Below, one piece after another: positions 2,934-21,215 of a DNA stretch of 32,000 nucleotides. The translations under genes were made by a program, and so were the position numbers. Source of the DNA: Geotalea daltonii FRC-32 (GTDB taxonomy: Bacteria; Desulfobacterota; Desulfuromonadia; Geobacterales; Geobacteraceae). The notes under the pieces are model-generated. The model had not been told where the DNA came from. It saw nothing but the letters and a program-made list of their open reading frames with translations, and made no database searches. Every line of letters starts with the position of its first letter. Position 1 is the stretch's first letter. Location: assembly GCF_000022265.1 (NCBI RefSeq), contig NC_011979.1, forward strand, positions 1,500,001-1,532,000, in the 5' to 3' direction.

Positions 2934-4439
2934 TTGATCTTTAAGAGCCTCACCACACGGGTAATAGTCATCTCCATCCTGCTGCTCGTCTTCGGCATCA
3001 GCACCTTTGCCTTCGTCACCCTGCGCCGTGAGCAGATGCAGCTGATCAATGCCGCCCGGGAAAGCAGCGAGCTTCTGCTCAACACCATAGAGCGCAGTAC
3101 CTACAATTCCATGCGCATCGGCAACACGGAAGATGTGCAGACCATCCTAGAGCTTGTAGGGCAGAACCAGAAACTGCTCTCCGTCCGCATATTTCATCCC
3201 CACGGCGTTGTCCTCAAATCCTCCCGGCCCAGCGAGGTCGGCAAGCCTGTTGACGACCGGGACTACCAGCTGTTCATCAACAACAGGAAAGACGGCGTTT
3301 TTTATCTGGAGGGTCACGGGGAAGTCCTGGGCATGTTGAAGCCCATCTATAACGATGAACCGTGCCACGTCTGCCATGGCCACAAGAGCCGGATCATCGG
3401 CCTGCTGAATGTCAATTATTCGCTTGTCGAGACCAGAAAGCGGATCATGGATGCCTCCAAGCTCTTTGTTTTTTCCACCATTGCCATCATATCCTTCCTC
3501 TCCCTTGCAATCTCCATGGTTATGGTGAAATTCGTCAAGAAGCCCCTCCATCTCCTGGCGGAAAACATGGCCAGGGTTGAGCAGGGTGATTTGTCGGTGC
3601 GGATGAAGCCCGATGGCAAGGATGAGATCGGCCGTCTCATAGTCAGTTTCGATTCCATGGTGGACCGACTCGATACTGCCAAGCAGGAGCTGGATCAATA
3701 TCATTTCCAGCAGATGGAGAGGGCAGACCGACTGGCTTCCGTCGGCGAAATGGCTGCAGGCATTGCCCACGAGATAAAAAACCCACTGACCGGCATTGCA
3801 GCAGCCATAACCATAATAAAAGAGGACTTCGCTCCCTCCGACTCACGCACCACCATTGTCGATGAGGTACTGGAGCAGATCAAGAGGCTCGACAAGACGG
3901 TTAACGACCTGTTGTTTTTCGGCAAGCCGGCGCAACCGGAGCCCGCCTTTACCGATATAAATTCAACCATACGGAAAACCCTCAAGTTCGCTTCCCAGCA
4001 TCGGGGAAGCAAAAATATCGAGAAAAAGCTGGAACTTCAGGAAGATCTGCCACCGGTGTATGTGGACCCGAAACAGATCCAGCAGGTTTTGCTCAACCTG
4101 ATTCTCAATGCCATGCAGGCAATGCATGACGGCGGAACACTGACCATAAGAAGTGCATTCGAGAAAAAAGAGCAGGACTGGGTTCTTATCATGGTCAAGG
4201 ATACCGGACAGGGGATTCCTGCCCAGATCCTGGAGAAGATCTTTACGCCGTTTTTTACGACAAAGGCACAGGGGACCGGCCTTGGTCTGGCCATCTGCCA
4301 TAAGCTCGTGTCGCAGCACAATGGAACCTTGACTGTTTCCAGCGAGGATGGCAAAGGAACCGAATTCATCGTAAGTTTACCGGCCCTCAGTCTGCAGTTT
4401 CCTGAAAATCAGGCTTTGGAGACCGCTGCAGCAATATAG
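2934..4439 (+). CDS. Sensor histidine kinase (2 TM, periplasmic loop with CxxCH, HAMP, HisKA, HATPase_c)
   Basis: TTG start 5 nt after AGGAG (2924-2928). TM1 at about aa 10-30 and TM2 at about aa 178-200. HAMP-like segment after TM2, H-box AHEIKNPL, N-box LNLILNAMQA, G1 DTGQGI, F-box FTPFFTTK, G2 GTGLGLAI. CHVCH at aa 144-148 lies in the periplasmic loop. Confidence 0.9.
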   Translation: MIFKSLTTRVIVISILLLVFGISTFAFVTLRREQMQLINAARESSELLLNTIERSTYNSMRIGNTEDVQTILELVGQNQKLLSVRIFHPHGVVLKSSRPSEVGKPVDDRDYQLFINNRKDGVFYLEGHGEVLGMLKPIYNDEPCHVCHGHKSRIIGLLNVNYSLVETRKRIMDASKLFVFSTIAIISFLSLAISMVMVKFVKKPLHLLAENMARVEQGDLSVRMKPDGKDEIGRLIVSFDSMVDRLDTAKQELDQYHFQQMERADRLASVGEMAAGIAHEIKNPLTGIAAAITIIKEDFAPSDSRTTIVDEVLEQIKRLDKTVNDLLFFGKPAQPEPAFTDINSTIRKTLKFASQHRGSKNIEKKLELQEDLPPVYVDPKQIQQVLLNLILNAMQAMHDGGTLTIRSAFEKKEQDWVLIMVKDTGQGIPAQILEKIFTPFFTTKAQGTGLGLAICHKLVSQHNGTLTVSSEDGKGTEFIVSLPALSLQFPENQALETAAAI

Positions 4440-4496
4440 CCATACAATTAGATCCAGTCGCTGCTTTTTTACTACTTCTGGAAAAGGGGAATTGCC

Positions 4497-5867
4497 TTGA
4501 GAAAGACAAGAATACTGGTGGTTGATGATGAGCACTTGATCCGTTGGTCACTGGAACAGAATCTGAAAAAGCAGGGTTATGAAGTCTTTACCGCCGGCAA
4601 TGGTGAAGATGCTCTTCGTCTGGTGCGTGAGGAGCAACCTGAGCTGGTACTGCTTGATATTCAACTGCCCGGCATTGGCGGACTTGAGGTTCTGGAAAAG
4701 GTCAAGGAATTCGATGACGAGATAGTAGTCATCATGCTCACGGCCCATGGCGGTCTGGAAACAGCCGTAAACACCATGCGTATGGGCGCCTACGATTATA
4801 TCAACAAGCCCTTTAACCTGGATGAGCTCTCCATTGTCATAAAGAAGGCGCTGGAAACTTCCGATCTGCGTCGCGAAGTAGTTCAGTTGAGAAGTGAGCA
4901 CAAAAAGCTGGGTCCCCCAAAGATTATCGGTACCAGCAAGCATATGAAAAATGTTTTGGACATGATGGGCAAGGTTGCCAAGAGTGAAGCATCCACCGTC
5001 CTCATTCAGGGTGAATCGGGTACCGGCAAGGAGCTGGTCGCAAAATGGATCCATTATCAGTCCAGCCGTGCAGAAAAACCCTTTGTCGCTATAAATTGTG
5101 CGGCCGTCCCGGCAACCCTTCTGGAGAGTGAGCTTTTCGGCCATGAAAAGGGGGCCTTTACCGATGCCAAAACCGCAAAAAAAGGGCTGTTTGAACTTGC
5201 CGATGGAGGGACCGTATTTCTCGATGAGATCGGCGATATGGAGATGGGGATGCAGGCAAAGCTCCTCAGATTCCTTGAGGACAGAACCTTCAGGCGCATC
5301 GGTGGCGCCAAGGTTATATCTGTCGATGTGCGGATTATTTCAGCGACCAACAAGGAGCTACTCAAGGCCATCGAAGAGAAGTCTTTCCGCAACGACCTCT
5401 ACTACCGGTTGCAAGTGATCCCTATTTTCCTTCCTGCTTTGAGGGAGAGGAGGGACGATATCATCCAACTTGCCAATTTCTTCATGGAATCCTTCGGCAG
5501 GGAATTCAACAAGTCGGTAAAATCCATCTCAAGCATGGCTGAAAAGATGCTCATTGATTATAGCTGGCCAGGCAATATCAGAGAACTTAAAAATGTTATT
5601 GAACGGGCTATCATCCTTGGGACCGAGGACACCCTGCTCATCGAAAATCTGCCGCTTGAGATAATTGCGAAAAGTTCCGCATCCACAGTGCCAGTTTCTA
5701 CGTTCAAACTGCCACCAGAAGGGGTTGATATCGAAGAGGTAGAAAAAGAACTCATAAGGCAATCGCTGGAGATAACCGATTGGAATCAATCAAAGGCCGC
5801 CAAAAAACTTAACCTGGGCATAGATGCTTTCAGGTACCGCATGAAGAAATTTGGTTTTTTAAAATAA
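4497..5867 (+). CDS. Sigma-54-dependent response regulator (REC, AAA+ sigma-54 interaction domain, Fis-type HTH; NtrC family)
   Basis: TTG start after AAGGGGA. REC domain with VVDDE and LLDIQLPG (phospho-Asp). Walker A GESGTGKE, ESELFGHEKGAFTDA (GAFTGA-loop variant), Walker B VFLDEIGD, RIISATN. C-terminal HTH is NQSKAAKKLNLGIDAFRYRMKK. Confidence 0.92.
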   Translation: MRKTRILVVDDEHLIRWSLEQNLKKQGYEVFTAGNGEDALRLVREEQPELVLLDIQLPGIGGLEVLEKVKEFDDEIVVIMLTAHGGLETAVNTMRMGAYDYINKPFNLDELSIVIKKALETSDLRREVVQLRSEHKKLGPPKIIGTSKHMKNVLDMMGKVAKSEASTVLIQGESGTGKELVAKWIHYQSSRAEKPFVAINCAAVPATLLESELFGHEKGAFTDAKTAKKGLFELADGGTVFLDEIGDMEMGMQAKLLRFLEDRTFRRIGGAKVISVDVRIISATNKELLKAIEEKSFRNDLYYRLQVIPIFLPALRERRDDIIQLANFFMESFGREFNKSVKSISSMAEKMLIDYSWPGNIRELKNVIERAIILGTEDTLLIENLPLEIIAKSSASTVPVSTFKLPPEGVDIEEVEKELIRQSLEITDWNQSKAAKKLNLGIDAFRYRMKKFGFLK

Positions 5868-6089: not shown

Positions 6090-6105
6090 GGGCATCGAAG
6101 TTGCA
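6090..6105 (+). promoter_or_regulatory. Sigma-54 (-24/-12) promoter for the NHL/cytochrome unit
   Basis: GGGCATCGAAGTTGCA compared with consensus TGGCACGNNNNTTGCW: GG at 6091-6092 and GC at 6103-6104 with exact consensus spacing, and TTGCA is perfect. Located 84 nt upstream of ATG 6189. Confidence 0.55.
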
Positions 6106-6188: not shown

Positions 6189-9035
6189 ATGATTCACGCA
6201 AAGCGCAACCTTACAACATTGCTTGTCGTCTCGCTGCTTGTCGCAGTCATTTCACTGCCGGGAACAATTTCTTTGGCGGCAGCGGTGGCCCCTGTGGCCA
6301 AGGCCATGCCTCCTGTCAGGGATGGGATGATGACGCCTGCGAGGATCGTTGTCGAATCTTCCGGCAACAATTACTATGTCACTGACCCTAGGGCCGGGGC
6401 TGTTTTGAAGTACAATCTTTATGGCCATCTGGTGCAGACCATAAAAACAACTGGTATTCCTCTTGGTATTGCCTTCGCGGGTAGTGATCTGCTGGTTACC
6501 TGCGGTAACTATGTTTCCGTTGTCAATCCCGGTACCGGCGCCGAGATCAGGCGTATTGGCGAACCAGGGGTTATCGCTAAAGCGACTGGTGTCGCTGTCG
6601 ATAGCCTTGGCTCCACATACGTTGCTGATGCTGCAAAGCATCAGGTTCACGTCTTTGCTGCTTCCGGTGTGTATGTGCGCTCGTTTGGCGGCCTGGGCAA
6701 GGCGGCCGGCTTTTTTCAGTATCCAGCTGGCCTTGCATACGACAAAGACCTCAACCGACTTGCTGTTGCAGACTCTATGAACGGCAGGGTTCAGCTTTTC
6801 GATGTGAATCCTTCTAGCCCCACTTATCTAACCAATGTGAAAACTATTGGCCTTGGTACCTTGCGTGATCAGCCTTTGGATTTTGTTGCTCCCCAAGGCG
6901 TCAGCTTTGAATATGATAAAGCTGGAAAGTTGAAAAGGATGTATGTGGTTGATACCTGGAAAAGCGGAATTCAGGTCATCGATCCACTGGACGGGGTGAA
7001 TGGTAGATATCTGTCTCTCGTTGGAGCTGGCGCAATCTCTGCTGGCTCCTATATCTACGGTATGCTGAATGGGGTTCAGGATTGGCAATTCCTGCTTCCC
7101 TCGGATGCTGCATTTGATCCAGTCTATAGCAGGCTTCTGGTACCTTCGGCCAACAGCAGTATTCAGATTATCGGTATTGACGGCGGCATGACCCCCTCTG
7201 ACAATAACCCGATCTATCTCAATATTGATGCATCCCCACTGAACACGAATTCTCCGAACTATGCAATTAGTGGAACGGTTAAACCTGGCTCTCAAATCAA
7301 GATAACGACAAATACCGGTGCCATTGCCGGTCTGGTCGAGCCGGTAGGTCAGGTTTGGAATGCTACCATCACCGGTTTGGCGTTGGGTGTCAATAAGATC
7401 ACTGTCCTGGCAACCGATGTAACGGGCAAAGAGTTGTCCAAAGAGATAAGTGTTCTGTACACCCTCAATGCTCCGTCACTTACCGTAACAACGGCCACTG
7501 GTACAGTGGTCAACGGTCTTTCTACGGCTTTGTCCGGCACCGTGGACGCCGATTGCACGGTAAATATAATAAATAATACTACGGGAATTACAAGCACGGC
7601 GGTTGTGACAGGAACATCGTGGAATGGAACGGTAACCCTTTCCAATAACGCCGCCAACAATTTCACGGTAACGGCAAGTAAACCCGGTAGCAACACTGCC
7701 TCTACAAGTGTGACGATTATAAGTGATACGACTGCACCTTCTCTGAATATATCCGCTCTTCCCGATAACAGCTACAGCAGTGGCACAATGACTCAGAATA
7801 TTTCGGGATACGTGCAGGATGCAAATCCCTCTACCGTATCGGTTTCTGTGAATGGTGGTGCTGCGGCCATTTATTCGACACCGTTGCCCGCAGCCTCCTT
7901 CAGCGCTTCGGTCACTCTTCAGCAGGGTGCCAATACCATAACCGTTCAAGCGACTGACCTTGCGGGTAATACGTCTTTCGTCAACACCAGGACGATCAGC
8001 TACCAGCCGACCAGGCCTGTATTGACCCTGGGTGCTGCAACCCCTGCCGATAACTCCTTTACAAATTCAGCTACTGTCTCCGTCAGCGGTACGGTAACAC
8101 CTGTCAATTCTGTCGTTACCATCACCAATAACGGCGTGGCTGTCGCCGGGGTCACTAACGATGCCGCCGGCAATTGGTCGGCGCCAGTCACGGGCCTGCC
8201 TCTGGTGAACGGTCAAAACGTCATAGTGATTAGTGCAAATGCCGGTGCTGGTGATGCCAGTCTGAAGCGTACTGTCACCCTTGATACAACCGTGCCTGGT
8301 CTGGCAATTACATCGCCTGCAGCGGACATTTCCATCAATGATCCCAGTATTGAAATAGCCGGTACGGTTTCGGCTGACGCAGGCGGTTACCCGACATTGA
8401 CCGCCATGGTAAATTCAACTCCGGTCACCCCGACCTTGACCAATGGAACTTTTGTCTTGTACCCGGGTGCTTATCTTGCCGAAGGTCCTAACACCATCAC
8501 GGTGACTGCGACTGATTCAGCTAACAATCCCCCTGTTATCCAGGTGCGCAATATCAATTACGACATAACGCCGCCTGCTCTTACTCTTGGTTCAACATAT
8601 GCCGGTTACCCCAAGACCATAAGCGGTACAGTTGAAAGCCAAGCCAGTATCACCGTTAAAGATGGAGCTACGTCCTTCCCCGTAGTCGTTACTGCTGGCC
8701 AGTGGACTGCCAATCTGTCTTCGGCAAGTTACAGCAGGGATACCCTCCAGATTAAAGCAACTGATGCCGCAGGCAATATAAGTGTGATTACGGGTCTGAG
8801 TTCTTCCTATACCAAACCCTCCGGCGACTTAAATGCTGATAGTCTTGTCAATACGGTAGATGTGCAACTGGCGCTGGATTTTGCTTACGGGCGCAAGGTG
8901 CCTACACAGGAACAGCTATTGCAAGGCGATATCGGACCACTTCTGAATGGGTTTGCTAATCCAAACGGCGTCATAGATTTGTCGGATGCAATCCTTATTC
9001 GCAAAAAAGCAGTTGATAGCACTTTTACCTGGTAA
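6189..9035 (+). CDS. Secreted NHL-repeat beta-propeller protein with an array of Ig-like domains and a C-terminal dockerin-like module
   Basis: RBS ACGGAGG before ATG 6189. Signal peptide ...SLAAAVAPVAKA. NHL-type repeats (YVTDPRAGAVLKYN, GVAVDSLGSTYVADAAKHQVHVF, PAGLAYDKDLNRLAVADSMNGRVQLFD). About 6-7 Ig-like modules of roughly 90 aa share the recurring pattern ISGTV...G.N.ITV.ATD.AGN. The C-terminus has EF-hand-like loops DLNADSLVNTVD and NPNGVIDLSD. Confidence 0.85.
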   Translation: MIHAKRNLTTLLVVSLLVAVISLPGTISLAAAVAPVAKAMPPVRDGMMTPARIVVESSGNNYYVTDPRAGAVLKYNLYGHLVQTIKTTGIPLGIAFAGSDLLVTCGNYVSVVNPGTGAEIRRIGEPGVIAKATGVAVDSLGSTYVADAAKHQVHVFAASGVYVRSFGGLGKAAGFFQYPAGLAYDKDLNRLAVADSMNGRVQLFDVNPSSPTYLTNVKTIGLGTLRDQPLDFVAPQGVSFEYDKAGKLKRMYVVDTWKSGIQVIDPLDGVNGRYLSLVGAGAISAGSYIYGMLNGVQDWQFLLPSDAAFDPVYSRLLVPSANSSIQIIGIDGGMTPSDNNPIYLNIDASPLNTNSPNYAISGTVKPGSQIKITTNTGAIAGLVEPVGQVWNATITGLALGVNKITVLATDVTGKELSKEISVLYTLNAPSLTVTTATGTVVNGLSTALSGTVDADCTVNIINNTTGITSTAVVTGTSWNGTVTLSNNAANNFTVTASKPGSNTASTSVTIISDTTAPSLNISALPDNSYSSGTMTQNISGYVQDANPSTVSVSVNGGAAAIYSTPLPAASFSASVTLQQGANTITVQATDLAGNTSFVNTRTISYQPTRPVLTLGAATPADNSFTNSATVSVSGTVTPVNSVVTITNNGVAVAGVTNDAAGNWSAPVTGLPLVNGQNVIVISANAGAGDASLKRTVTLDTTVPGLAITSPAADISINDPSIEIAGTVSADAGGYPTLTAMVNSTPVTPTLTNGTFVLYPGAYLAEGPNTITVTATDSANNPPVIQVRNINYDITPPALTLGSTYAGYPKTISGTVESQASITVKDGATSFPVVVTAGQWTANLSSASYSRDTLQIKATDAAGNISVITGLSSSYTKPSGDLNADSLVNTVDVQLALDFAYGRKVPTQEQLLQGDIGPLLNGFANPNGVIDLSDAILIRKKAVDSTFTW

Positions 9036-9089: not shown

Positions 9090-12000
9090 ATGAATGGACC
9101 AATTAAAAATGCTCTGCTGACACTGATCTTGGTCACAATTGTGACAATAACAGCGCAGGCGCAATACTTGCCACCTTCGCATGATTTCGGCCAACAGAGT
9201 TGCGGTGCCTGTCATGCGACTGGTACTGATATTACCAATGCTGCTAATAATAATGTCTGTATGATATGTCACAAGGTCGGTAGTGCTTCTACCACGAACA
9301 AGCAGTTCTTTGTGGGAGATATGGCCAATCCATTTGGGACGACTATCGAAAGCAACGAGAATGGCAGTTATTCACACAGTTCTCACGAGTGGTCTGCAAC
9401 CGACGATAACCCGGCAGCAGGGGCTCTACCACCTGTTAATCCTGTCATGAATACCATTAATTCCTACAACGGTAGCTTGAGTTGTAACCGTTGCCATGGA
9501 ATACACGCGCCATCACCGCTTCCTCACCTGCTCAGGCAGTCCATGAACAACGATGAGCTCTGTCTCGATTGTCATCGTCTTAGGAACACAAACTCTCACA
9601 TATACGGCTCACATCCTGTAAACATGGACTACAACGCCGTTGCTTCAAGCAAACCCACTAAATATGCAGCTTCGCCGGTTAATAGTAACCCTGCCAACCC
9701 AACATCCGATATGAAATTGGCTAACGGCAAAGTCGTATGTACAACTTGTCACAATGCTCACTTCACCGACTCCAGCAGCAAGACCCTTGATAACTTTTCA
9801 ACGGCAATGGTAAACGGGCTTGCCCCCTCCAAAGGTTACTTGCTGCGGACAGATTACCGGTACGTGAACTATACTACGCTGGACAGCCCCAATATCTGTA
9901 CCAACTGCCACACAAGTAAGCATGAACATAATGGCGGCAACCAGAGGGTGCGTTGTACTGACTGTCACAGTGGCCACGTGGATTACGATCCCTTCGCAAC
10001 TGACCCCGCGACAATGGTACCAAACGTTTATATGGTCAAACGTTATATGAACTGGTCATCGGCCACGGGCTGGAAGGATAACAAGAAGCTAACCACGCCC
10101 AAGCAGACGCTGTTCCAGGATGCATCTGCCCAGAGACTCTACAAAAGGGCGGATGGCAAGGGTGTCTGCCAGAGTTGTCATGAGGTGCCACCTTGGAAAG
10201 CAATTGCTCCGAGTGGCAATCCTTACCCAGAGGCACATGATATTGTCAATGCCGTTGCAGCTGATTGTAATCGCTGCCACAGCCACGACAGCCGGTGGAG
10301 TTTCGCCGCCTCCTGTTTAGAATGCCATGGTCAACCGCCCACCGCCACCACTGCCGCAGCCGGTTATCAAGGCAATGAAGCTGTTTCAGCCCATACCAAG
10401 CATTCCAACAATTACAGCTTCAAGTGTCTTGAGTGTCACTATGACGGTGCCTCTCTCGCACTGCATGACAAAGGCAATTACCAGGATGTCTACCACCGTC
10501 CCGACTATGTAGACGCCGATGCTGTGGCCTCAAAGTTTGGATCTCTCCCTTCCTACAGTACAAGCGCCAATAAATGTTCTACCGTTTACTGCCACAGTAA
10601 TGGCGCACCCAAGCTTGCATTCAAAACCTACTCAATAGCATACAAAACGACGCCCAATTGGTTTGGCGAGCAAACAACATGTAATTCCTGTCATGAGGCA
10701 GCACCGACAACAAATGCCCATGGCGCCCACCTTGCTAAAAATTATACCTGCCAAAACTGCCATGCCGCCACTGCCAGCGGTTCAGGTGCAATAATCGACA
10801 AAACTAAACATGCCGACGGCAATAAACAGCTGGAGTTTGCATCAGTGGGGCTGTCCTTTGCCCTTAATGGAAACTCCTGCTCGACGATATACTGCCACAG
10901 TGATGGGTCTGGTAATTATTCCGCCCCCACTTGGACTGATTCGTCAACCGGCCAGTGCGGAACCTGCCACGGCACAACCGACAGAACCAGCGGTGCCCAT
11001 CAGGCGCACCTGTCTCAGACAACACTCTATGGGCCAAAACTCACACAATTCGACACAGTGGTTGCCTGTAACAAATGTCATGGCCCCGACTACACAACCA
11101 AGCATCTTAACGGTACGACAGTAGATGTCAGCTCCTCAACCTGTTCGGCCTCATGCCATGCCAACGGCATCGGCTCTGCCTCCTGGGTAACCGGAAGAAC
11201 CGGCATTACCTGTGAAAGCTGTCATACGGGCACCCTGTCCAATGTGAACGGTGCGACTGCACCCGATAAGTCTTTCGCAGCCAGCCGGGGCCATAACATG
11301 AACTCCAGCAGCACCGGCGTCATCATGAACTACAACTGTACCTCGTGCCATGATGCTAATGCCAAGCACATCGACCCTGCTGCTCACGACACCAGGTTGT
11401 TGCCGGCCTACACGGGTGCACTTAACAATGAGTGTAACGCTTGTCACAACACCGCAACGGTGCCTACGGAGAGCAAAAAGGACATGCTCACGCACGTTAT
11501 TGATCTTGTAGGCACTCCGAGTGCTTGTAACGTCTGCCATGATCCCCATGGTTCTGCTAACCGGAACATGATTAGGGCGAAAATTGTGGCGCGTGATGGT
11601 TTTAACAATATAACCTGCAACATTTCTTACAAGAACAGCACTTCGTTGGTCTCAACAGTTAAGGTTGGTAACCTGTATACGGGCCTTTGCCAGGTCTGCC
11701 ATACTTCGACCAAGTTCTACAAAAACAACACTGAGGAAACCAATCATTACTCGACCGGTTGTTTCGACTGCCACAAACATAAGGCTGCTGATAAGACCTA
11801 TGCATTCGAGCCTGGCGGTGGTGGTTGCAATGGTTGTCATGGCTACCCACCTGTTCAGACAATGCAGGCGAATTACGGTACTCTTGGTAATTACTCAGGT
11901 GCTCGTCTTCAAAACTACTCCGGTGGTGGCGGCGCCCACGATGTGCCTGGTCACATTGCTGCCAACTCTCGTCCTTCACAAGGCTGGACAAACTGTCTCA

Positions 12001-12215
12001 CTTGCCATTACGGGTCAAGCCAGCACATGAAGGGTGACTATACAAAACCATCCACCATTAATGTCACCGTTGATCCGAAATACAAATTCGATTCCAAACT
12101 GCCGATTACTTACTCCGGCAACCAGAATAATGATCGCAGCCTCTACCAATCCGGTACATGCTCCAATGTCAGCTGCCACTTCCAGGCGTCACCGAAGTGG
12201 AGTAGCGAAAAGTAA
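9090..12215 (+). CDS. Multiheme c-type cytochrome, about 27 heme-binding motifs
   Basis: RBS CAGGAG (9078-9083). Signal peptide ending TAQA/QY. My by-eye count is 23 CxxCH, 3 CxxxxCH (CSTVYCH, CSTIYCH, CSNVSCH) and 1 CxxxCH (CSASCH). The C-terminal two thirds resemble the Geobacter CxxxxCH...CxxCH domain family (TIGR01904, from memory). The 54-nt gap to the upstream gene suggests co-transcription. Confidence 0.9.
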   Translation: MNGPIKNALLTLILVTIVTITAQAQYLPPSHDFGQQSCGACHATGTDITNAANNNVCMICHKVGSASTTNKQFFVGDMANPFGTTIESNENGSYSHSSHEWSATDDNPAAGALPPVNPVMNTINSYNGSLSCNRCHGIHAPSPLPHLLRQSMNNDELCLDCHRLRNTNSHIYGSHPVNMDYNAVASSKPTKYAASPVNSNPANPTSDMKLANGKVVCTTCHNAHFTDSSSKTLDNFSTAMVNGLAPSKGYLLRTDYRYVNYTTLDSPNICTNCHTSKHEHNGGNQRVRCTDCHSGHVDYDPFATDPATMVPNVYMVKRYMNWSSATGWKDNKKLTTPKQTLFQDASAQRLYKRADGKGVCQSCHEVPPWKAIAPSGNPYPEAHDIVNAVAADCNRCHSHDSRWSFAASCLECHGQPPTATTAAAGYQGNEAVSAHTKHSNNYSFKCLECHYDGASLALHDKGNYQDVYHRPDYVDADAVASKFGSLPSYSTSANKCSTVYCHSNGAPKLAFKTYSIAYKTTPNWFGEQTTCNSCHEAAPTTNAHGAHLAKNYTCQNCHAATASGSGAIIDKTKHADGNKQLEFASVGLSFALNGNSCSTIYCHSDGSGNYSAPTWTDSSTGQCGTCHGTTDRTSGAHQAHLSQTTLYGPKLTQFDTVVACNKCHGPDYTTKHLNGTTVDVSSSTCSASCHANGIGSASWVTGRTGITCESCHTGTLSNVNGATAPDKSFAASRGHNMNSSSTGVIMNYNCTSCHDANAKHIDPAAHDTRLLPAYTGALNNECNACHNTATVPTESKKDMLTHVIDLVGTPSACNVCHDPHGSANRNMIRAKIVARDGFNNITCNISYKNSTSLVSTVKVGNLYTGLCQVCHTSTKFYKNNTEETNHYSTGCFDCHKHKAADKTYAFEPGGGGCNGCHGYPPVQTMQANYGTLGNYSGARLQNYSGGGGAHDVPGHIAANSRPSQGWTNCLTCHYGSSQHMKGDYTKPSTINVTVDPKYKFDSKLPITYSGNQNNDRSLYQSGTCSNVSCHFQASPKWSSEK

Positions 12216-12262: not shown

Positions 12263-12284
12263 AGGGAGGGTTCCCACCCTCCCT
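12263..12284 (+). other. GC-rich hairpin between the two cytochrome genes
   Basis: AGGGAGGGT (12263-12271), loop TCCC, ACCCTCCCT (12276-12284): a perfect 9-bp stem. It is followed by ATTGAGG with no T-run, so it is not a canonical terminator. It may be a partial attenuator or an mRNA-stability element. Confidence 0.35.
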
Positions 12285-12341
12285 ATTGAGGATGTCAGTA
12301 TGAGATTACAATCGTTTTCAGTTATATTTAAGGAGTCAAGT

Positions 12342-15300
12342 ATGAAGACATGTCACAGCGCAGGATACTTCAAACAACTGATTCTATTCTTGCTGTTGTC
12401 CTTAATGACTGTATTTGTCTTTACGGGGAATGCGCTGGCACTGACTGGCAACAAAATTGACAGTTGTTCAGACTGTCATGGCGAACGGCTAACCGGTGAC
12501 GTCAGACCTGTAGACTGGGGTTATAGAAACATAAGCACCGGTGGTGTTGTGGGAAACCACAGGACCCATATGGCCAATGGTGCATCGGTGGCAAGTTGTG
12601 ATACCTGCCATGTGAAGAATACTACTTTTGGCCACCGTGACGGCAAGATCAGCTTTCGGGCAGATATAAACGCTTCACCGGCGACTACCACCTATCTTAA
12701 AGCCGGAGTGCTTGGTTTTGTTAACCAGACCTCCAATCCGGTCATGACCAATGCAAACTGCTCCAATGTTAACTGCCACTTTGAAACAACCTCTCCAAGT
12801 TGGGGCCTGACTGCAGCGGCAGCCGGCCTTAATTGTGAGTCATGCCATAACTCTGCAAATACATCCTCCGCTCACACCAAACATAAAGAAAAATACGGCA
12901 GTTTAGGTTCCAACTACCTTGATTCTTGTTCTACATGCCATCCCAATAGAAGCACTTTTTCGCATGCAACGAGCGCAAACAATGCTGGTCGTAACATAGC
13001 CATTACAGTTAGCAGCTATGCTGGATCAAATTTTAAATATCTTCCAAGTGAAGCCGCCAGCCGTGTTCTAGGTTCCTGTAATAACCTTTACTGCCACAGT
13101 TCAGGGCAGTCTGCAACCGGTGGTTCAACTCCAGTTTACGCAACACCCAATTGGGGGGATACTGCCTCTGGTGCCTGCGGAAGCTGCCATGCAACAACAA
13201 CCCTGGCTTCCGGCAGCCACACCAAGCACTTCAGCGGCATTTCCCCGAATACGAACTGCGGCAATTGCCACGCCGGTGCAACCAGCACCAGCTATGCATC
13301 AACGCTGCATGTTGATACCTTCATCAACGTAACCGGTGCCTATACACAGGGCAAGTCCCATGCGCCCGGCAACGGTTATGGTGCATGTAATGCCGCAAGC
13401 TGTCATGACAACGGCAAAGGCGTACCGGCAGCGACCCCGACATGGGGTAACTCAACAGTACCTGCATGTACCGCCTGTCATACGCTGATCCCCGCTGACA
13501 ACAGCCATAACAAGCACGTAACCACCACCACATACAAGAAAGCAGCCTGCGGTGACTGTCACACCGGCTATGTTCAGGGGGCAACCGCAGCAGCAAATCA
13601 CCTGAATACAACAATCGAAGTCAACACCGGCGGCTATCCGTCACCGAAAGCAAAAAACAGTACAGTAGGAAGCTGTGCCACCTCCTACTGCCACAGCTCC
13701 GGCCAGTCATTAACCGGTGACGCAGCACCAGTCTACGGCACAGCACCGACCTGGGGTCAGTCAGTAGCCTGCGGAAGCTGCCATGCAACAACAACCCTGG
13801 CTTCCGGCAGCCACACCAAGCACTTCAGCGGCATTTCCCCGAATACGAACTGCGGCAACTGTCACGCCGGTGCAACCAGCACCAGCTATGCATCAACGCT
13901 GCATGTTGATACCTTCATCAACGTAACCGGTGCCTATACACAGGGCAAGTCCCATGCGCCCGGCAACGGTTATGGTGCATGTAATGCCGCAAGCTGTCAT
14001 GACAACGGCAAAGGCGTACCGGCAGCGACCCCGACATGGGGTAACTCAACAGTACCTGCATGTACCGCCTGTCATACGCTGATCCCCGCTGACAACAGCC
14101 ATAACAAGCACGTAACCACCACCACATACAAGAAAGCAGCCTGCGGTGACTGTCACACCGGCTATGTTCAGGGGGCAACCGCAGCAGCAAATCACCTGAA
14201 TACAACAATCGAAGTCAACACCGGCGGCTATCCGTCACCGAAAGCAAAAAACAGTACAGTAGGAAGCTGTGCCACCTCCTACTGCCACAGCTCCGGCCAG
14301 TCATTAACCGGTGGCGCAGCACCAGTCTACGGCACAGCACCGACCTGGGGTCAGTCAGTAGCCTGCGGAAGCTGCCATGCAACAACAACCCTGGCTTCCG
14401 GCAGCCACACCAAGCACTTCAGCGGCATTTCCCCGAATACGAACTGCGGCAACTGCCACGCCGGTGCAACCAGCACCAGCTATGCATCAACGCTGCATGT
14501 TGATACCTTCATCAACGTAACCGGTGCCTATACACAGGGCAAGTCCCATGCGCCCGGCAACGGTTATGGTGCATGTAATGCCGCAAGCTGTCATGACAAC
14601 GGCAAAGGCGTACCGGCAGCGACCCCGACATGGGGTAACTCAACAGTACCTGCATGTACCGCCTGTCATACGCTGATCCCCGCTGATAACAGCCATAACA
14701 AGCACGTAACCACCACCACATACAAGAAAGCAGCCTGCGGTGACTGTCACACCGGCTATGTTCAGGGGGCAACCGCAGCAGCAAATCACCTGAATACAAC
14801 AATCGAAGTCAACACCGGCGGCTATCCGTCACCGAAAGCAAAAAACAGTACAGTAGGAAGCTGTGCCACCTCCTACTGCCACAGCTCCGGCCAGTCATTA
14901 ACCGGTGGCGCAGCACCAGTCTACGGCACAGCACCGACCTGGGGTCAGTCAGTAGCCTGCGGAAGCTGCCATGCAACAACAACCCTGGCTTCCGGCAGCC
15001 ACACCAAGCACTTCAGCGGCATTTCCCCGAATACGAACTGCGGCAACTGTCACGCCGGTGCAACCAGCACCAGCTATGCATCAACGCTGCATGTTGATAC
15101 CTTCATCAACGTAACCGGTGCCTATACACAGGGCAAGTCCCATGCGCCCGGCAACGGTTATGGTGCATGTAATGCCGCAAGCTGTCATGACAACGGCAAA
15201 GGCGTACCGGCAGCGACCCCGACATGGGGTAACTCAACAGTACCTGCATGTACCGCCTGTCATACGCTGATCCCCGCTGACAACAGCCATAACAAGCACG

Positions 15301-17120
15301 TAACCACCACCACATACAAGAAAGCAGCCTGCGGTGACTGTCACACCGGCTATGTTCAGGGGGCAACCGCAGCAGCAAATCACCTGAATACAACAATCGA
15401 AGTCAACACCGGCGGCTATCCGTCACCGAAAGCAAAAAACAGTACAGTAGGAAGCTGTGCCACCTCCTACTGCCACAGCTCCGGCCAGTCATTAACCGGT
15501 GGCGCAGCACCAGTCTACGGCACAGCACCGACCTGGGGTCAGTCAGTAGCCTGCGGAAGCTGCCATGCAACAACAACCCTGGCTTCCGGCAGCCACACCA
15601 AGCACTTCAGCGGCATTTCCCCGAATACGAACTGCGGCAACTGCCACGCCGGTGCAACCAGCACCAGCTATGCATCAACGCTGCATGTTGATACCTTCAT
15701 CAACGTAACCGGTGCCTATACACAGGGCAAGTCCCATGCGCCCGGCAACGGTTATGGTGCATGTAATGCCGCAAGCTGTCATGACAACGGCAAAGGCGTA
15801 CCGGCAGCGACCCCGACATGGGGTAACTCAACAGTACCTGCATGTACCGCCTGTCATACGCTGATCCCCGCTGATAACAGCCATAACAAGCACGTAACCA
15901 CCACCACATACAAGAAAGCAGCCTGCGGTGACTGTCACACCGGCTATGTTCAGGGGGCAACCGCAGCAGCAAATCACCTGAATACAACAATCGAAGTCAA
16001 CACCGGCGGCTATCTCTCCCCTAAAGCCAAGAACAGCCTGGTTAGCAGTTGTACTACTTCCAGCTGCCACTCAAATGGAAAAGGCAGCTCTCAATCAGTT
16101 ACCTGGGGACAGGCTTCACTTAACTGTAAGTCCTGCCATCCAGCCTTGGGTGGCGCACATTCCCGCCACATGGGTGGTTTCGACGGTGTCAACGCCATGG
16201 ATTGGGCCAACCTGCCCTTCTACCAGTATACCTCCACCAAATCCACTGGTGCTGACAGTGGTACGCCTGCCAACTATGCATTCGGCTGCGCCAACTGTCA
16301 CCCAATTACTTCTTTGAGCCATGTCAATGGCACCATTGATGTCACACTCGATACCACCGGCAACGTTAGTTCGCTGCGTGCGAAAAATGCTTCGGCAGGT
16401 TTCGCCGGCACAACGGTAGGTACTAATACTCTCAAGTGCCAGAACGTATACTGTCACAGTGACGGTAAGGGTGGGCAAACCACCACTTTGGCCTGGAATC
16501 AGACCTCAACTGCCTCCGAACGCTGCGCCAAGTGCCATGGCAATTCACCAGCTGATGCCACACATCAGGCTCATGTAAGTGGCGGAATTCATGCTGACAA
16601 TGTCTTCAACGGCACAAGCGGATTACTTTCTGCCGGCTCCACAGGGTCCGTGAGCCATGGCATCGCCGGCCAGCAAACGACAATCAACTGTAACATCTGT
16701 CACAGTGGAACAGTTACCTCTGCACGCAACGCTGCAAATAGTGCCTGTGTCTCCTGCCACGGCGGAGATGCATCGCCTGTCTACGGCTCCATTGCCGACC
16801 TGAGCAACCACGTCAACGGCAATGTCAATGTTTCCTTTGCCGATACGACCATCTACTCCAAGGCACAGTTGAGGCCTACCAGCTTCGCCGGATATACCAG
16901 CGGTACCGCAGGTTGGGTTCGCAACGGCGACAACTACAAAAATGGTGCAGCAGCCTTTGACTACTCTAAAAACAAGCTGGCTGCCCAGGCAACCTGGACC
17001 GCAGGTCCTGCTGGGCAAAGCTCCTGTTCCAACGTCGTTTGTCATAACATGAAAGCAGGCCAGCCAGCTGTAAAATGGAGTGATACCCTCTCCTGCGATA
17101 GCTGCCACACTAGCCTGTAA
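12342..17120 (+). CDS. Giant multiheme c-type cytochrome (1592 aa, about 44 heme-binding motifs) with internal tandem repeats
   Basis: The ORF-track frame opens at 12300. ATG 12342 sits 6 nt after AAGGAG (12330-12335) and gives a signal peptide MKTCHSAGYFKQLILFLLLSLMTVFVFTGNALA. My by-eye count is 30 CxxCH and 14 CxxxxCH. The protein is built from modules of about 99 aa: CxxxxCH, about 22-25 aa, CxxCH, a short [SA]HxxH segment, CxxCH. Confidence 0.9.
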   Translation: MKTCHSAGYFKQLILFLLLSLMTVFVFTGNALALTGNKIDSCSDCHGERLTGDVRPVDWGYRNISTGGVVGNHRTHMANGASVASCDTCHVKNTTFGHRDGKISFRADINASPATTTYLKAGVLGFVNQTSNPVMTNANCSNVNCHFETTSPSWGLTAAAAGLNCESCHNSANTSSAHTKHKEKYGSLGSNYLDSCSTCHPNRSTFSHATSANNAGRNIAITVSSYAGSNFKYLPSEAASRVLGSCNNLYCHSSGQSATGGSTPVYATPNWGDTASGACGSCHATTTLASGSHTKHFSGISPNTNCGNCHAGATSTSYASTLHVDTFINVTGAYTQGKSHAPGNGYGACNAASCHDNGKGVPAATPTWGNSTVPACTACHTLIPADNSHNKHVTTTTYKKAACGDCHTGYVQGATAAANHLNTTIEVNTGGYPSPKAKNSTVGSCATSYCHSSGQSLTGDAAPVYGTAPTWGQSVACGSCHATTTLASGSHTKHFSGISPNTNCGNCHAGATSTSYASTLHVDTFINVTGAYTQGKSHAPGNGYGACNAASCHDNGKGVPAATPTWGNSTVPACTACHTLIPADNSHNKHVTTTTYKKAACGDCHTGYVQGATAAANHLNTTIEVNTGGYPSPKAKNSTVGSCATSYCHSSGQSLTGGAAPVYGTAPTWGQSVACGSCHATTTLASGSHTKHFSGISPNTNCGNCHAGATSTSYASTLHVDTFINVTGAYTQGKSHAPGNGYGACNAASCHDNGKGVPAATPTWGNSTVPACTACHTLIPADNSHNKHVTTTTYKKAACGDCHTGYVQGATAAANHLNTTIEVNTGGYPSPKAKNSTVGSCATSYCHSSGQSLTGGAAPVYGTAPTWGQSVACGSCHATTTLASGSHTKHFSGISPNTNCGNCHAGATSTSYASTLHVDTFINVTGAYTQGKSHAPGNGYGACNAASCHDNGKGVPAATPTWGNSTVPACTACHTLIPADNSHNKHVTTTTYKKAACGDCHTGYVQGATAAANHLNTTIEVNTGGYPSPKAKNSTVGSCATSYCHSSGQSLTGGAAPVYGTAPTWGQSVACGSCHATTTLASGSHTKHFSGISPNTNCGNCHAGATSTSYASTLHVDTFINVTGAYTQGKSHAPGNGYGACNAASCHDNGKGVPAATPTWGNSTVPACTACHTLIPADNSHNKHVTTTTYKKAACGDCHTGYVQGATAAANHLNTTIEVNTGGYLSPKAKNSLVSSCTTSSCHSNGKGSSQSVTWGQASLNCKSCHPALGGAHSRHMGGFDGVNAMDWANLPFYQYTSTKSTGADSGTPANYAFGCANCHPITSLSHVNGTIDVTLDTTGNVSSLRAKNASAGFAGTTVGTNTLKCQNVYCHSDGKGGQTTTLAWNQTSTASERCAKCHGNSPADATHQAHVSGGIHADNVFNGTSGLLSAGSTGSVSHGIAGQQTTINCNICHSGTVTSARNAANSACVSCHGGDASPVYGSIADLSNHVNGNVNVSFADTTIYSKAQLRPTSFAGYTSGTAGWVRNGDNYKNGAAAFDYSKNKLAAQATWTAGPAGQSSCSNVVCHNMKAGQPAVKWSDTLSCDSCHTSL
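13173..16015 (+). repeat. 594-bp in-frame tandem repeat, about 4.8 copies, near-identical at nucleotide level
   Basis: The string gcctgcggaagctgccatgc recurs at 13173, 13767, 14361, 14955 and 15549 (period 594). Five near-identical antisense ORFs at 594-bp spacing in the ORF track confirm it. The repeat decays at about 16015, where ggctatccgtca becomes ggctatctctcc. Confidence 0.95.
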
Positions 17121-17144
17121 CAAATACCTCAGTTGTTATTCCAG

Positions 17145-17181
17145 CCGGTCCATCTGTAAGAGATGGACCGGTTTTTTTTTT
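17145..17181 (+). terminator. Rho-independent terminator closing the cytochrome unit
   Basis: CCGGTCCATCT (17145-17155), loop GTAAG, AGATGGACCGG (17161-17171): an 11-bp perfect stem followed by 10 T (17172-17181), 25 nt after stop codon 17120. Confidence 0.88.
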
Positions 17182-17549
17182 GCATCATTCACTCTTCCTA
17201 CTTGCTGCCTGGGGTGTCTGCAGTAATCTGTAATAAGTTTCACAAAGCGAACCCAAATTCCCCTTGCAGAGAACTTACCGCAGGGGCAACACAGCCGGGG
17301 GCCAAAAGACCCGAAATTATCCGGCAACTGCCAAACTTTCTTGTACAGGGGGTTGAACTGAGGATTAAAGGGAGGGCAAAGGAATTCTTGAGATGATTAG
17401 CGATGACTAGCCGGAGAACGGCAGGACTTCGGAGCGAGTTTAAGCTACCAGTCGAAAATAAGCAGAAGCAGAGAAAAGGAGTGCTGACCAAGAAACAGTG
17501 ACAGCCAAGCTGGTGGAAGATGTGGGTTTAAGATGATCAAGGCACCTGA

Positions 17550-18788: not shown

Positions 18789-19184
18789 GATTTAGAGGTC
18801 CTCCTGTTAGACAGGCAATAAGAGGCACTGGCTTTTAAATTGAATGAAGGGTACACATTCACTGGAACCAGTCTCATTAGATTTTAAATGAGCACGCAAT
18901 TCCATTCAACAGGAATATGAACAAGGAGTGTTAATTTCTCTTACGAACATGACACGGCAGGCACATGTAAATATGGGTCGGGGAAACGCAGAAGGGAGTT
19001 TGATGCAGGAATGGTTGAGGCTCTATTTGCCTGATCCAGGCAGCATGCAGGGAACTAAGGCTGTCAGAATCCATATTGGAGCAGTGGGAGGCGCTACTGC
19101 TCGCAGGTGTCGTTTGCCACGATTAACATGCTGCTTGCAGAACCGGCAGTTTCTGAATAGTTATGAAGGATGTCCTTGTATCAC

Positions 19185-20420: not shown

Positions 20421-20457
20421 ATTACATTAGAAAATTATACTGGCTACGAGGAATTTC

Positions 20458-21192: not shown

Positions 21193-21215
21193 ATCACACT
21201 CAGCAGAATTTTTGG

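What the first reader, a model, noticed from the sequence alone, without database searches (positions are those of the whole stretch)
13173..16015. About 4.8 copies of a 594-bp in-frame tandem repeat, almost identical at DNA level, inside the 1592-aa cytochrome
Each 198-aa unit carries 4 CxxCH and 2 CxxxxCH motifs. Reading the copies against each other, I found only four variable nucleotide positions (copy-1 coordinates 13265 aat/aac, 13268 tgc/tgt, 13499 gac/gat, 13720 gac/ggc). Three are synonymous and one gives Asp/Gly. Such identity over about 2.8 kb of coding sequence implies very recent expansion or ongoing concerted evolution by unequal recombination. Copy number, and so the number of hemes and the physical length of the protein, is probably variable between strains or within a population. 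It is also a classic assembly hazard, so the true copy number may differ from what is shown.
Basis: seen in the sequence. Interest (0 to 1): 0.85.

Follow-up and report, generated by a model that had tools for sequence, protein, structure and literature searches.

The report
Recently amplified heme-module repeat in cytochrome
A secreted 44-heme cytochrome of the metal-reducing bacterium Geotalea daltonii contains 4.8 nearly identical copies of a 594-bp six-heme coding module, and relatives show that recombination keeps expanding, shrinking and homogenising this array, so the length of the protein's heme chain changes quickly over evolution and is easily mis-assembled.

Summary
It is an in-frame 594-bp tandem repeat at 13173-16014 (4.78 copies) inside the 1592-aa cytochrome ACM19734.1 of Geotalea daltonii FRC-32. 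There are only four variable sites, three synonymous and one Asp/Gly. Each unit has 4 CxxCH and 2 CxxxxCH motifs.

New findings:
- Copy 2 equals copy 4 and copy 3 equals copy 5 (an exact 1106-bp repeat at lag 1188). The last event was therefore a two-unit duplication. Short reads cannot tell 2.78, 4.78 and 6.78 copies apart.
- Orthologues carry the same unit at the same position but in different numbers: 3.5 and 2.96 in two G. uraniireducens paralogues and ~2.4 in a metagenome relative. Units are 97-100% identical within a genome and ~65% identical between species.
- The two G. uraniireducens paralogues share a 2.16-kb tract that is 99.7% identical, flanked by DNA that is ~60% identical. This indicates gene conversion.
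- A strain-level metagenome contig carries an A/B chimera with no repeat.
- The G. toluenoxydans draft assembly breaks at the array.

This is a new example of a known evolutionary mode, concerted evolution of domain-sized repeats, in a known protein family. Interest is moderate. The true copy number in FRC-32 remains unverified.

The parts
12342..17120 (+). Gene for the 1592-aa secreted multiheme c-type cytochrome (ACM19734.1), with 30 CxxCH and 14 CxxxxCH motifs.
   Evidence: ORF. Exact database match. PF09698/TIGR01904 match 13 times. AGGAG Shine-Dalgarno at 12331-12335.
12342..12440 (+). Sec-type signal peptide (MKTCHSAGYFKQLILFLLLSLMTVFVFTGNALA, then LTG). No lipobox.
   Evidence: Read from the translation. 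The cleavage site is inferred from the A-L-A motif. It is conserved in Geotalea sp. SG265.
12465..13172 (+). N-terminal older, diverged modules with 6 heme motifs, ~29% aa identity to the repeat unit.
13173..16014 (+). Near-identical in-frame tandem array: 594-bp period, 4.78 copies, 28 of the 44 heme motifs.
13173..13766 (+). Copy 1. Haplotype T-C-C-A at offsets 92/95/326/547. Asp at the variable residue.
13767..14360 (+). Copy 2. Haplotype C-T-C-G (Gly).
14361..14954 (+). Copy 3. Haplotype C-C-T-G (Gly).
14955..15548 (+). Copy 4. Identical to copy 2.
15549..16014 (+). Copy 5, partial (466 nt). Identical to copy 3. It continues in phase into a diverged homologous tail.
13721..14826 (+). First arm of the exact 1106-bp repeat at lag 1188, the trace of the latest two-unit duplication.
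14909..16014 (+). Second arm of the exact 1106-bp repeat.
16015..16508 (+). Diverged continuation of the last unit plus a lineage-specific hyperdiverged segment. It is 58% aa identical to G. toluenoxydans although the flank is ~95% identical in DNA.
12806..16491 (+). Variable central cassette. It cannot be aligned in DNA with the syntenic Geotalea sp. SG265 gene, whose ends and neighbours are 70-83% identical.
16509..17120 (+). Conserved C-terminal part: 98.5% aa identical to G. toluenoxydans and 82% to SG265.
17143..17173 (+). Intrinsic terminator (13-bp stem, then T8) ending the operon.
9090..12215 (+). Upstream co-oriented 1041-aa multiheme cytochrome (MtrC-like domain II/IV, GSu_C4xC__C2xCH).
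   Evidence: Syntenic in G. uraniireducens.
6189..9035 (+). First operon gene: 948-aa NHL beta-propeller and Ig-like repeat protein.
   Evidence: Syntenic.
6090..6105 (+). Sigma-54-type promoter candidate GGGCAT-N5-TTGCA, with 2 mismatches to TGGCAC-N5-TTGC.
   Evidence: Read by eye. The scan at 1 mismatch or fewer found nothing intergenic. Inferred only.
2934..5867 (+). Sensor histidine kinase (2934-4439) and sigma-54-dependent response regulator (4497-5867), conserved next to the operon.
   Evidence: Same order in G. uraniireducens.

Best explanation
The array is real. It is a very young, recombinationally active tandem amplification of a 198-aa double module inside a secreted GSu_C4xC__C2xCH multiheme cytochrome. 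Each double module is two ~99-aa triheme modules and carries six heme motifs.

Shown:
- The units are 99.5-100% identical, synonymous sites included.
- The most recent event duplicated a two-unit, 1188-bp block (copies 2-3 became copies 4-5).
- The orthologous array in relatives has the same unit and the same start point, but different copy numbers and different degrees of homogeneity.
- In G. uraniireducens a 2.16-kb tract covering the array has been copied between two otherwise ~60% identical adjacent paralogues.
- A strain-level relative of G. uraniireducens carries a fusion of the two paralogues with the repeats removed.

Inferred:
- The mechanism is homologous, RecA-type unequal crossing-over and gene conversion between 594-bp units. 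This adds or removes 6-heme or 12-heme cassettes in frame.
- All hemes are bis-His ligated, because each module has 3 heme motifs and 3 further invariant histidines.
- The modules form one continuous electron-conducting heme chain, so each unit lengthens the 'wire'. One unit adds ~19.8 kDa of protein and 6 hemes, roughly 6-8 nm.
- The conserved N- and C-terminal parts keep export and partner contacts constant.
- The operon (NHL/Ig protein, 1041-aa cytochrome, this cytochrome) is probably controlled by the adjacent sigma-54 two-component pair.
For: Array anatomy and variable sites.

Identity of organism and protein.

Family assignment: PF09698 and TIGR01904 match 13 times.

Invariant ligands: six motifs plus six extra invariant His per unit. 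The module signature is H9, H12, CxxCH, H39, Cx4CH, W84, CxxCH.

Synteny and orthology with G. uraniireducens.

Unit identities: 99.5-100% within G. daltonii, 97-100% within G. uraniireducens, 64-66% between them. The flanks diverge to the same degree, 49-54% aa identity. The array start coincides within ~4 residues.

Copy numbers: 4.78, 3.5, 2.96 and ~2.4.

Paralogue conversion tract: 6 differences in 2157 nt, against 61% and 59% identity in the gene ends.

L028 chimera: A residues 1-297 joined to B residues 900-1379, with an offset of 5748 = 3957 + 3x597.

Recurrence in the family: 17 of 119 other homologues have internal 80-aa windows that are at least 95% identical, with periods from 96 to 965 aa. 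P0034 has a 1002-bp period at 97% DNA identity.

Literature: long wire-like monomers are predicted for such Desulfuromonadia cytochromes, 27 motifs spanning about 350 Angstrom (PMC11492766).
Against: - Only one assembly of G. daltonii exists in the collections. The two-unit duplication is an exact copy, which is also what a mis-assembly would produce.
- The metagenome evidence (L022, L028) could be repeat collapse or a mis-join. The search meant to test this was not exhaustive and did not even return the query's own protein.
- There are no population or strain data for G. daltonii itself.
- The wire function is not demonstrated. Both AlphaFold attempts had low confidence (pLDDT 46.8 and 55), Foldseek found nothing, and no solved relative exists by sequence.
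- Direct profile comparison with the c7 cytochrome PpcA was negative, probability 6.7%.
- Geotalea sp. SG265 has a non-repetitive central region. An ancestral array is therefore not proven, and independent amplification in each lineage remains possible.
Confidence: 0.8

Rival explanations
1. Assembly artefact in copy number. The array exists, but the finished sequence has the wrong number of 1188-bp double units. The true array could be c1-c2-c3' (2.78 copies) or longer than shown.
For: - Copies 2/4 and 3/5 are exactly identical (1106-bp exact repeat). Reads shorter than ~1.2 kb therefore cannot count the double units.
- Removing one double unit gives 2.78 copies, close to the relatives at 2.4-3.5.
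- FRC-32 was a 164-contig draft before finishing (PMC2825233).
- The near-conspecific G. toluenoxydans draft breaks at this array.
- Contig breaks in this gene family are enriched.
Against: - The record is a finished single-contig chromosome of 4,304,501 bp.
- An exact duplicate is equally what a very recent real duplication looks like.
- Near-identical arrays of 3-3.6 copies are present in other finished or long contigs.
- Nothing in the sequence itself, such as frame, junctions or N runs, looks abnormal.
Confidence: 0.2
2. Independent recent amplification in each lineage from a single-copy ancestral unit, rather than long-term concerted evolution of an array inherited from the common ancestor.
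For: - Geotalea sp. SG265 has a syntenic gene with conserved ends and no repeat at all.
- L028 has only 0.5 unit.
- The arrays end at different phases: 0.78, 0.5, 0.96 and ~0.4 of a unit.
- Homogeneity differs widely between lineages: 100%, 97-100% and 93%.
- Other family members amplified quite different periods.
Against: - The unit, the period (198/199 aa) and the array start (within ~4 residues) are the same in G. daltonii, G. uraniireducens A and B, and P0003.
- Gene conversion is directly visible between paralogues A and B, so homogenisation does operate.
- Non-integer copy numbers need recombination within units, not simple duplication.
Confidence: 0.3
3. The identity is maintained by selection on the protein or DNA sequence rather than by recency or homogenisation.
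For: The heme motifs and distal histidines are invariant across the family.
Against: - Synonymous third positions are also identical over 2.8 kb. Three of the four differences are synonymous.
- The same unit differs at ~35% of nucleotides and ~47% of residues in the orthologue, so the sequence is not constrained to this degree.
Confidence: 0.02
4. The repeat block is a foreign or mobile cassette inserted into the gene.
For: - GC content of the array (56.5%) is somewhat above the window mean of 51.9%.
- The central region cannot be aligned with SG265.
Against: - There are no inverted repeats or other mobile-element features.
- The units are homologous to the flanking older modules of the same protein and continue them in phase.
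- Orthologues in a syntenic locus carry the same unit.
Confidence: 0.03

Closest known systems
GSu_C4xC__C2xCH (PF09698 / TIGR01904) CxxxxCH/CxxCH-domain cytochromes of Geobacteraceae
   Same: The protein is a bona fide member: 13 domain matches, 356 bits against a cut-off of 27. It is already annotated as such, with 44 heme-binding sites.
   Different: The family description says nothing about near-identical DNA-level arrays, copy-number differences between orthologues or gene conversion between paralogues. Those are the findings of this analysis.
c7-type domain polymers GSU1996/GSU0592 ('nanowire' dodecaheme cytochromes) and PpcA
   Same: Both are chains of triheme modules in one polypeptide, proposed to have arisen by duplication and concatenation of modules (PMC11492766). 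Whole-protein scores to TIGR04257 (89.9 bits, cut-off 40) and PF14522 (120.6 bits) exceed their thresholds.
   Different: - No single stretch passes TIGR04257 on its own.
- The module profile against PpcA (sequence verified as 1OS6) gives probability 6.7%, and the GSU1996 fragment 3ouq scores E = 0.63.
- The modules here are ~99 aa with a Cx4CH middle motif and an invariant Trp.
- From my own knowledge, the four GSU1996 domains are diverged, not near-identical.
Predicted 'molecular wire' multiheme cytochrome clusters of Desulfuromonadia (Soares et al. 2024, PMC11492766)
   Same: These are long, modular, probably extracellular monomers with many CxxCH and CxxxxCH motifs. They are not encoded with a porin-cytochrome complex.
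   Different: That survey does not use the words 'repeat' or 'tandem' at all. It gives no DNA-level analysis and no copy-number comparison.
Near-identical domain-sized tandem repeats in bacterial surface proteins (e.g. streptococcal alpha C/Rib, staphylococcal Aap/SasG, enterococcal Esp); my own knowledge, not tested here
   Same: - In-frame repeats of hundreds of bp, almost identical in DNA.
- Copy number varies between strains through homologous recombination.
- Termini are conserved and the centre is variable.
- They are notorious assembly problems.
   Different: Here each repeat carries six covalently bound redox cofactors. Copy number therefore changes an electron-transfer chain, not an adhesin stalk or an antigen.
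Tandem repeats in Borg-encoded multiheme cytochromes (PMC11208441)
   Same: These are tandem nucleotide repeats inside multiheme cytochrome genes, and unit number varies within populations.
   Different: The Borg repeats are short units that create intrinsically disordered regions. They are not whole heme-binding modules.

Membership tests
GSu_C4xC__C2xCH cytochromes (PF09698 / TIGR01904) | Repeated CxxxxCH...CxxCH domain scoring above the curated cut-off. | tested here: met
   PF09698 scores 142.7 bits (cut-off 21.7) with 13 stretches. TIGR01904 scores 356.4 bits (cut-off 27) with 13 stretches.
Multiheme c-type cytochrome (secreted) | Multiple CxxCH-type heme attachment motifs, an axial ligand for each heme, and a Sec signal peptide. 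| tested here: met
   44 motifs. There is one additional invariant His per motif. The N-terminal signal peptide has an A-L-A site.
Multiheme c-type cytochrome (secreted) | Covalent heme attachment, and actual occupancy of the Cx4CH sites. | not testable with these tools
   Needs heme staining or mass spectrometry of the protein.
c7-type triheme 'nanowire' domain polymers (TIGR04257 / PF14522; GSU1996-like) | Sequence match to the c7 triheme domain model. | tested here: inconclusive
   Whole-protein scores pass (TIGR04257 89.9 against 40; PF14522 120.6 against 24.8), but TIGR04257 has no stretch that passes alone. hhalign of the module profile against PpcA gives probability 6.7%. PDB profile searches give only motif-level hits.
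c7-type triheme 'nanowire' domain polymers (TIGR04257 / PF14522; GSU1996-like) | c7 fold and heme arrangement of each module. | tested here: inconclusive
   AlphaFold2 models reached pLDDT 46.8 (unit) and 55.0 (module). Foldseek against the PDB gave 0 hits.
OmcA/MtrC decaheme family (TIGR03507) | Score above the family cut-off. | tested here: not met
   103.2 bits against a cut-off of 209.3.
Tandem coding repeats under concerted evolution / unequal recombination | Units much more alike within a genome than between orthologous arrays, synonymous sites included. | tested here: met
   99.5-100% within G. daltonii and 97-100% within G. uraniireducens, against 64-66% between the two species. Flanks diverge equally.
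Tandem coding repeats under concerted evolution / unequal recombination | Copy number differs between orthologues or paralogues. | tested here: met
   4.78, 3.5, 2.96 and ~2.4 copies.
Tandem coding repeats under concerted evolution / unequal recombination | Direct trace of gene conversion or unequal exchange. | tested here: met
   A 2157-nt tract at 99.7% identity lies between paralogues whose ends are 59-61% identical. There is also an exact two-unit duplication in the window.
Tandem coding repeats under concerted evolution / unequal recombination | Copy-number polymorphism between strains of one species. | tested here: inconclusive
   L028 and L022 are 96-97% identical to G. uraniireducens Rf4. 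L028 lacks 3957 + 3x597 bp and L022 lacks 2x597 bp. Metagenome assembly collapse cannot be excluded (one search was uninformative). No second G. daltonii assembly exists.
Contingency (high-frequency variable) locus | Measurable copy-number heterogeneity within a clonal population, with a phenotypic consequence. | not testable with these tools
   Needs deep long-read amplicon sequencing and physiology.

The most novel reading that the evidence does not exclude
The central part of this cytochrome could be a length-tunable heme 'wire' cassette that behaves like a contingency locus. RecA-mediated unequal exchange between near-identical 594-bp units would add or remove 6-heme or 12-heme blocks at appreciable frequency. 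Populations of Geotalea, and of many other bacteria carrying GSu_C4xC__C2xCH cytochromes, would then hold a standing mix of wire lengths between conserved N- and C-terminal adaptor ends. Selection could choose among those lengths according to the distance or geometry of the mineral or electrode acceptors.
Probability: 0.2. Interest if true: 0.7.

Novelty: new member of a known kind. Interest (0 to 1): 0.45.

Why it matters
Geobacter-type bacteria respire minerals and electrodes through multiheme cytochromes. These proteins are notoriously poorly conserved between species, and the reason is debated.

This locus shows one concrete way the diversity arises. Whole six-heme modules are duplicated, deleted and copied between paralogues by homologous recombination, fast enough that near-conspecific genomes differ.

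It also provides a natural allelic series with shared ends: 20, 34, 38 and 44 heme motifs. With it, one can test how heme-chain length affects electron transfer.

Practically, it warns that heme counts and lengths of giant cytochromes taken from short-read genomes and MAGs are unreliable. Contigs break or collapse at these arrays, and RefSeq has mis-called the start of this gene.

Tried and rejected
- Tandem Repeats Finder found nothing because its maximum period is 500. I replaced it with the direct-repeat tool and my own lag scans.
- Structure prediction failed twice. AlphaFold2 on the 198-aa unit (30-sequence alignment) gave pLDDT 46.8, and on the ~100-aa module (79 sequences) gave pLDDT 55 and pTM 0.38. 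Foldseek against the PDB gave 0 hits. No structural conclusion was drawn.
- PDB sequence and profile searches gave no real relative.
- My idea that the module follows the PpcA (c7) ligand order was not supported by hhalign (probability 6.7%). It is kept only as an untested resemblance.
- The sigma-54 promoter scan at 1 mismatch or fewer found nothing intergenic. Only a 2-mismatch candidate was seen by eye.
- The antisense 'terminator-like' hairpins that recur once per unit fold no better than shuffled sequence (z = -0.97). I dismissed them as chance.
- Look-ups for an independent assembly of the exact protein, and of the second G. daltonii repeat-bearing cytochrome P0101, found nothing.
- I searched for gene A's unique C-terminus to test whether the L028 chimera is a mis-join. 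The search was not exhaustive, because the query's own protein was not returned, so it is uninformative.
- Literature searches for '44 heme', for concerted evolution of multiheme cytochromes, and for internal repeats or copy number found no prior description.
Full report
**Observation**

The window carries an ORF at 12300..17120. Its most likely start is ATG 12342, which is preceded by an AGGAG Shine-Dalgarno sequence.

The direct-repeat tool finds five copies spaced exactly 594 nt apart from 13173. TRF missed them only because its period limit is 500. Base-by-base comparison gives these results.

- Near-identity runs from 13173 to 16014, which is 4.78 copies.
- There are exactly four variable columns: 13265 AAT/AAC, 13268 TGC/TGT, 13499 GAC/GAT and 13720 GAC/GGC. 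Three are synonymous and one is Asp/Gly.
- Each 198-aa unit holds 4 CxxCH and 2 CxxxxCH motifs. The protein holds 30 and 14, 44 in all.

The four sites define haplotypes: c1 = TCCA, c2 = CTCG, c3 = CCTG, c4 = c2 and c5 = c3. Consequently 13721-14826 is exactly identical to 14909-16014, an exact 1106-bp repeat at lag 1188.

The latest event was therefore a duplication of a two-unit block, not of a single unit. This has a practical consequence. Reads shorter than about 1.2 kb cannot tell 2.78, 4.78 and 6.78 copies apart.

**What it is**

The sequence is the chromosome of Geotalea (formerly Geobacter) daltonii FRC-32. The protein is GenBank ACM19734.1, 'cytochrome c, 44 heme-binding sites'. RefSeq's version, WP_195892562.1, starts at GTG 12549. 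That start removes the signal peptide and the first heme motif and is probably an annotation error.

Pfam and NCBIfam place the protein firmly in the GSu_C4xC__C2xCH family, with 13 domain matches.

An alignment of 30 units from homologues shows six invariant heme motifs and exactly six further invariant histidines. An alignment of 79 single modules gives the signature H9, H12, CxxCH, H39, Cx4CH, W84, CxxCH. That amounts to three hemes and three distal His per ~99-aa module. The two halves of the unit are 39% identical.

The architecture is hierarchical. There are ancient diverged triheme modules, then a 198-aa double module, then the young array.

**Genomic context**

The gene is the last in a co-oriented set. 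The set is an NHL/Ig-repeat protein (6189-9035), a 1041-aa multiheme cytochrome (9090-12215), and this cytochrome. A strong terminator follows at 17143-17173. A histidine kinase and a sigma-54-dependent response regulator lie upstream. A sigma-54-like promoter candidate sits at 6090-6105. It has two mismatches and is inferred only.

**Comparative evidence**

*G. uraniireducens Rf4.* This strain has the same locus order, but three large cytochromes where G. daltonii has one. Gene B (P0002, 1379 aa) is the orthologue. It is colinear with the window protein at 54% (N-terminus), 53% (unit) and 49% (C-terminus) aa identity.

Genes A and B both contain a 597-bp near-identical array that starts within ~4 residues of the G. 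daltonii array start. A has 2.96 copies and B has 3.5.

| Comparison of units | DNA identity |
|---|---|
| Within G. daltonii | 99.5-100% |
| Within and between G. uraniireducens A and B | 97-100% |
| Between the two species | 64-66% |

The units therefore diverge between species as fast as the non-repeat parts do, yet remain almost identical within a genome. Selection cannot explain this, because synonymous sites are homogenised too. The explanation is recency, homogenisation, or both.

*Metagenome orthologue P0003.* It is closer to the window protein (60% identity, unit 78%). It has only ~2.4 units, which are 93% identical in DNA.

*Geotalea sp. SG265.* Its gene is syntenic, with conserved N- and C-terminal parts and 35 heme motifs. 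Its central region has no repeat and cannot be aligned with window 12806-16491.

**Direct traces of recombination**

1. In G. uraniireducens, genes A and B are 61% identical in DNA over the first 420 nt and 59% after the array. Between those parts they share a 2157-nt tract with only 6 differences. This is a gene-conversion or mosaic tract centred on the array.
2. Metagenome contig L028 (354 kb) is 96-97% identical to Rf4. It carries a single 777-aa gene made of A residues 1-297 (98.7% identity) and B residues 900-1379 (96.7% identity). The missing DNA is 5748 bp, which equals 3957 (the A-to-B spacing) plus 3x597. An unequal crossover between the two arrays would produce exactly this. It has 20 heme motifs, where Rf4 has 34 and 38.
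3. Contig L022 lacks exactly 2x597 bp relative to gene B, and its contig starts exactly where the A/B shared tract starts.
4. The non-integer copy numbers and the in-phase hybrid last unit in the window also require exchange within units.

Points 2 and 3 could be assembly collapse. I consider L028 more likely real than not, because a long contig runs straight through. My attempt to test this was uninformative.

**Assembly hazard**

G. toluenoxydans JCM 15764 is 94-96% identical to the window in DNA from 16508 to 27265. Its contig ends at the equivalent of about 16080, some 66 nt beyond the array.

Among 25 related loci on contigs of at least 10 kb, 7 contigs end inside this gene upstream of the C-terminal domain. 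The expectation is 2.4, and P is about 0.004.

No independent assembly of the G. daltonii gene is on record. The copy number of 4.78 therefore cannot be verified here. I put about 0.2 on it being wrong.

**Generality**

Among 119 other homologues, 17 have internal 80-aa windows that are at least 95% identical. Their periods range from 96 to 965 aa. One of them is a second G. daltonii cytochrome, P0101, with a 358-aa period. P0034 has 3.6 copies of a 1002-bp unit at 97% DNA identity.

Recurrent, lineage-specific module amplification is thus a property of the family. Short-read data probably under-count it.

**How it most likely works**

Shown: the array, its youth, its variability between relatives, and the recombination tracts.

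Inferred:
- Homologous, RecA-type unequal crossing-over and gene conversion between 594-bp units adds or removes 6-heme or 12-heme cassettes in frame.
- The hemes are bis-His ligated and form one chain, so each unit lengthens the conductor. One unit adds 19.8 kDa of protein and 6 hemes.
- Related Desulfuromonadia cytochromes with 27 motifs are predicted to span about 350 Angstrom (PMC11492766). That suggests roughly 6-8 nm per unit and some 45-55 nm in total.
- The conserved termini probably keep export and partner interactions constant.

The functional part is weakly supported.
- Both AlphaFold runs were of low confidence and Foldseek gave nothing.
- No solved relative exists by sequence.
- The 'c7' labels (PF14522, TIGR04257) come from summed weak matches. 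A direct profile comparison with PpcA, whose sequence I verified as 1OS6, was negative.

**Comparison with what is known**

Membership in the GSu_C4xC__C2xCH family is established. Membership in the c7-polymer (GSU1996-type) class is inconclusive.

The evolutionary behaviour matches the classical pattern of near-identical domain repeats in bacterial surface proteins. That comparison rests on my own knowledge. The difference is that each repeat here carries redox cofactors.

The literature I could search covers neighbouring topics only.
- Whole-gene cytochrome duplications in Geobacter (PMC2825233).
- Predicted modular wire-like cytochromes, in a survey that never uses the words 'repeat' or 'tandem' (PMC11492766).
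- Short disordered repeats in Borg cytochromes (PMC11208441).

I found no description of DNA-identical heme-module arrays or of their copy-number variation.

**Verdict**

I extend it with the two-unit duplication, orthologue copy numbers, paralogue gene conversion, a probable strain-level deletion and family-wide recurrence.

This is a new example of a known evolutionary mechanism in a known and already annotated protein family. It is not a new kind of system. Interest is moderate at 0.45. It is useful for understanding why Geobacter cytochromes are so variable, for designing experiments on heme-chain length, and as a caution about assemblies. Its main open point, the true copy number in FRC-32 and whether it varies in populations, needs wet-lab or long-read data.

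Noticed in passing
window 12342-12549: RefSeq WP_195892562.1 (1523 aa) starts at GTG 12549. That start cuts off the signal peptide and the first CxxCH motif. GenBank ACM19734.1 starts at ATG 12342, which has a good AGGAG Shine-Dalgarno sequence. The RefSeq start looks wrong.
   Followed up: yes
window 16015-16508: The segment directly 3' of the array is only 58% aa identical to G. toluenoxydans, although the rest of the C-terminus is 98.5% identical and the flank ~95% identical in DNA. It is also 46-54% identical to all other orthologues, whereas the G. toluenoxydans version is 72% identical to SG265. This is a G. daltonii-specific replaced or hyperdiverged piece, with a breakpoint near 16508.
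   Followed up: partly
window 12806-16491 vs L006 (Geotalea sp. SG265): The syntenic SG265 gene keeps the signal peptide, the first ~150 aa and the last ~200 aa, and has 35 heme motifs. Its whole central region is unrelated in DNA and non-repetitive. The gene therefore has conserved ends and a swappable centre.
   Followed up: partly
L001 6479-8635 and 10436-12592 (G. uraniireducens Rf4, CP000698): Adjacent paralogous cytochrome genes share a 2157-nt tract with 6 differences, while their 5' and 3' parts are ~60% identical. This is a clear gene-conversion or mosaic tract.
   Followed up: yes
L028 8975-11308 (JGI metagenome contig Ga0074193_1000012): A strain-level relative of G. uraniireducens carries one chimeric 777-aa gene, made of the A N-terminus and the B C-terminus with 20 heme motifs. 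Rf4 has two genes at that position. The deleted length is 3957 + 3x597 bp. It is either a real unequal crossover or an assembly mis-join.
   Followed up: partly
L005 1-30 (G. toluenoxydans NZ_BBCJ01000048.1) and L008, L011, L018, L022, L026, L036: Contigs of draft genomes and MAGs end inside this gene just upstream of the C-terminal domain more often than expected (7 against 2.4). This suggests that repeat arrays in this family routinely break short-read assemblies.
   Followed up: partly
window 12265-12284: A perfect 7-bp GC-rich stem-loop (GGGAGGG ttccca CCCTCCC) lies in the short spacer between the two cytochrome genes. It could be an RNA processing or stability element, or a weak attenuator.
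   Followed up: no
window 24201-27038 (-) and 27151-28998 (-): A full-length 'GPMC system transcriptional regulator' (NF038230, 1617 bits) sits next to a TIGR04442-family protein (1053 bits). This is a Geobacter/Pelobacter-specific system unrelated to the finding.
   Followed up: no
protein P0101 (second G. daltonii cytochrome, 2004 aa; not in the window): This protein has an exact internal duplication with a 358-aa period at protein level. FRC-32 therefore has at least two cytochrome genes with very young module duplications. The DNA could not be fetched.
   Followed up: partly
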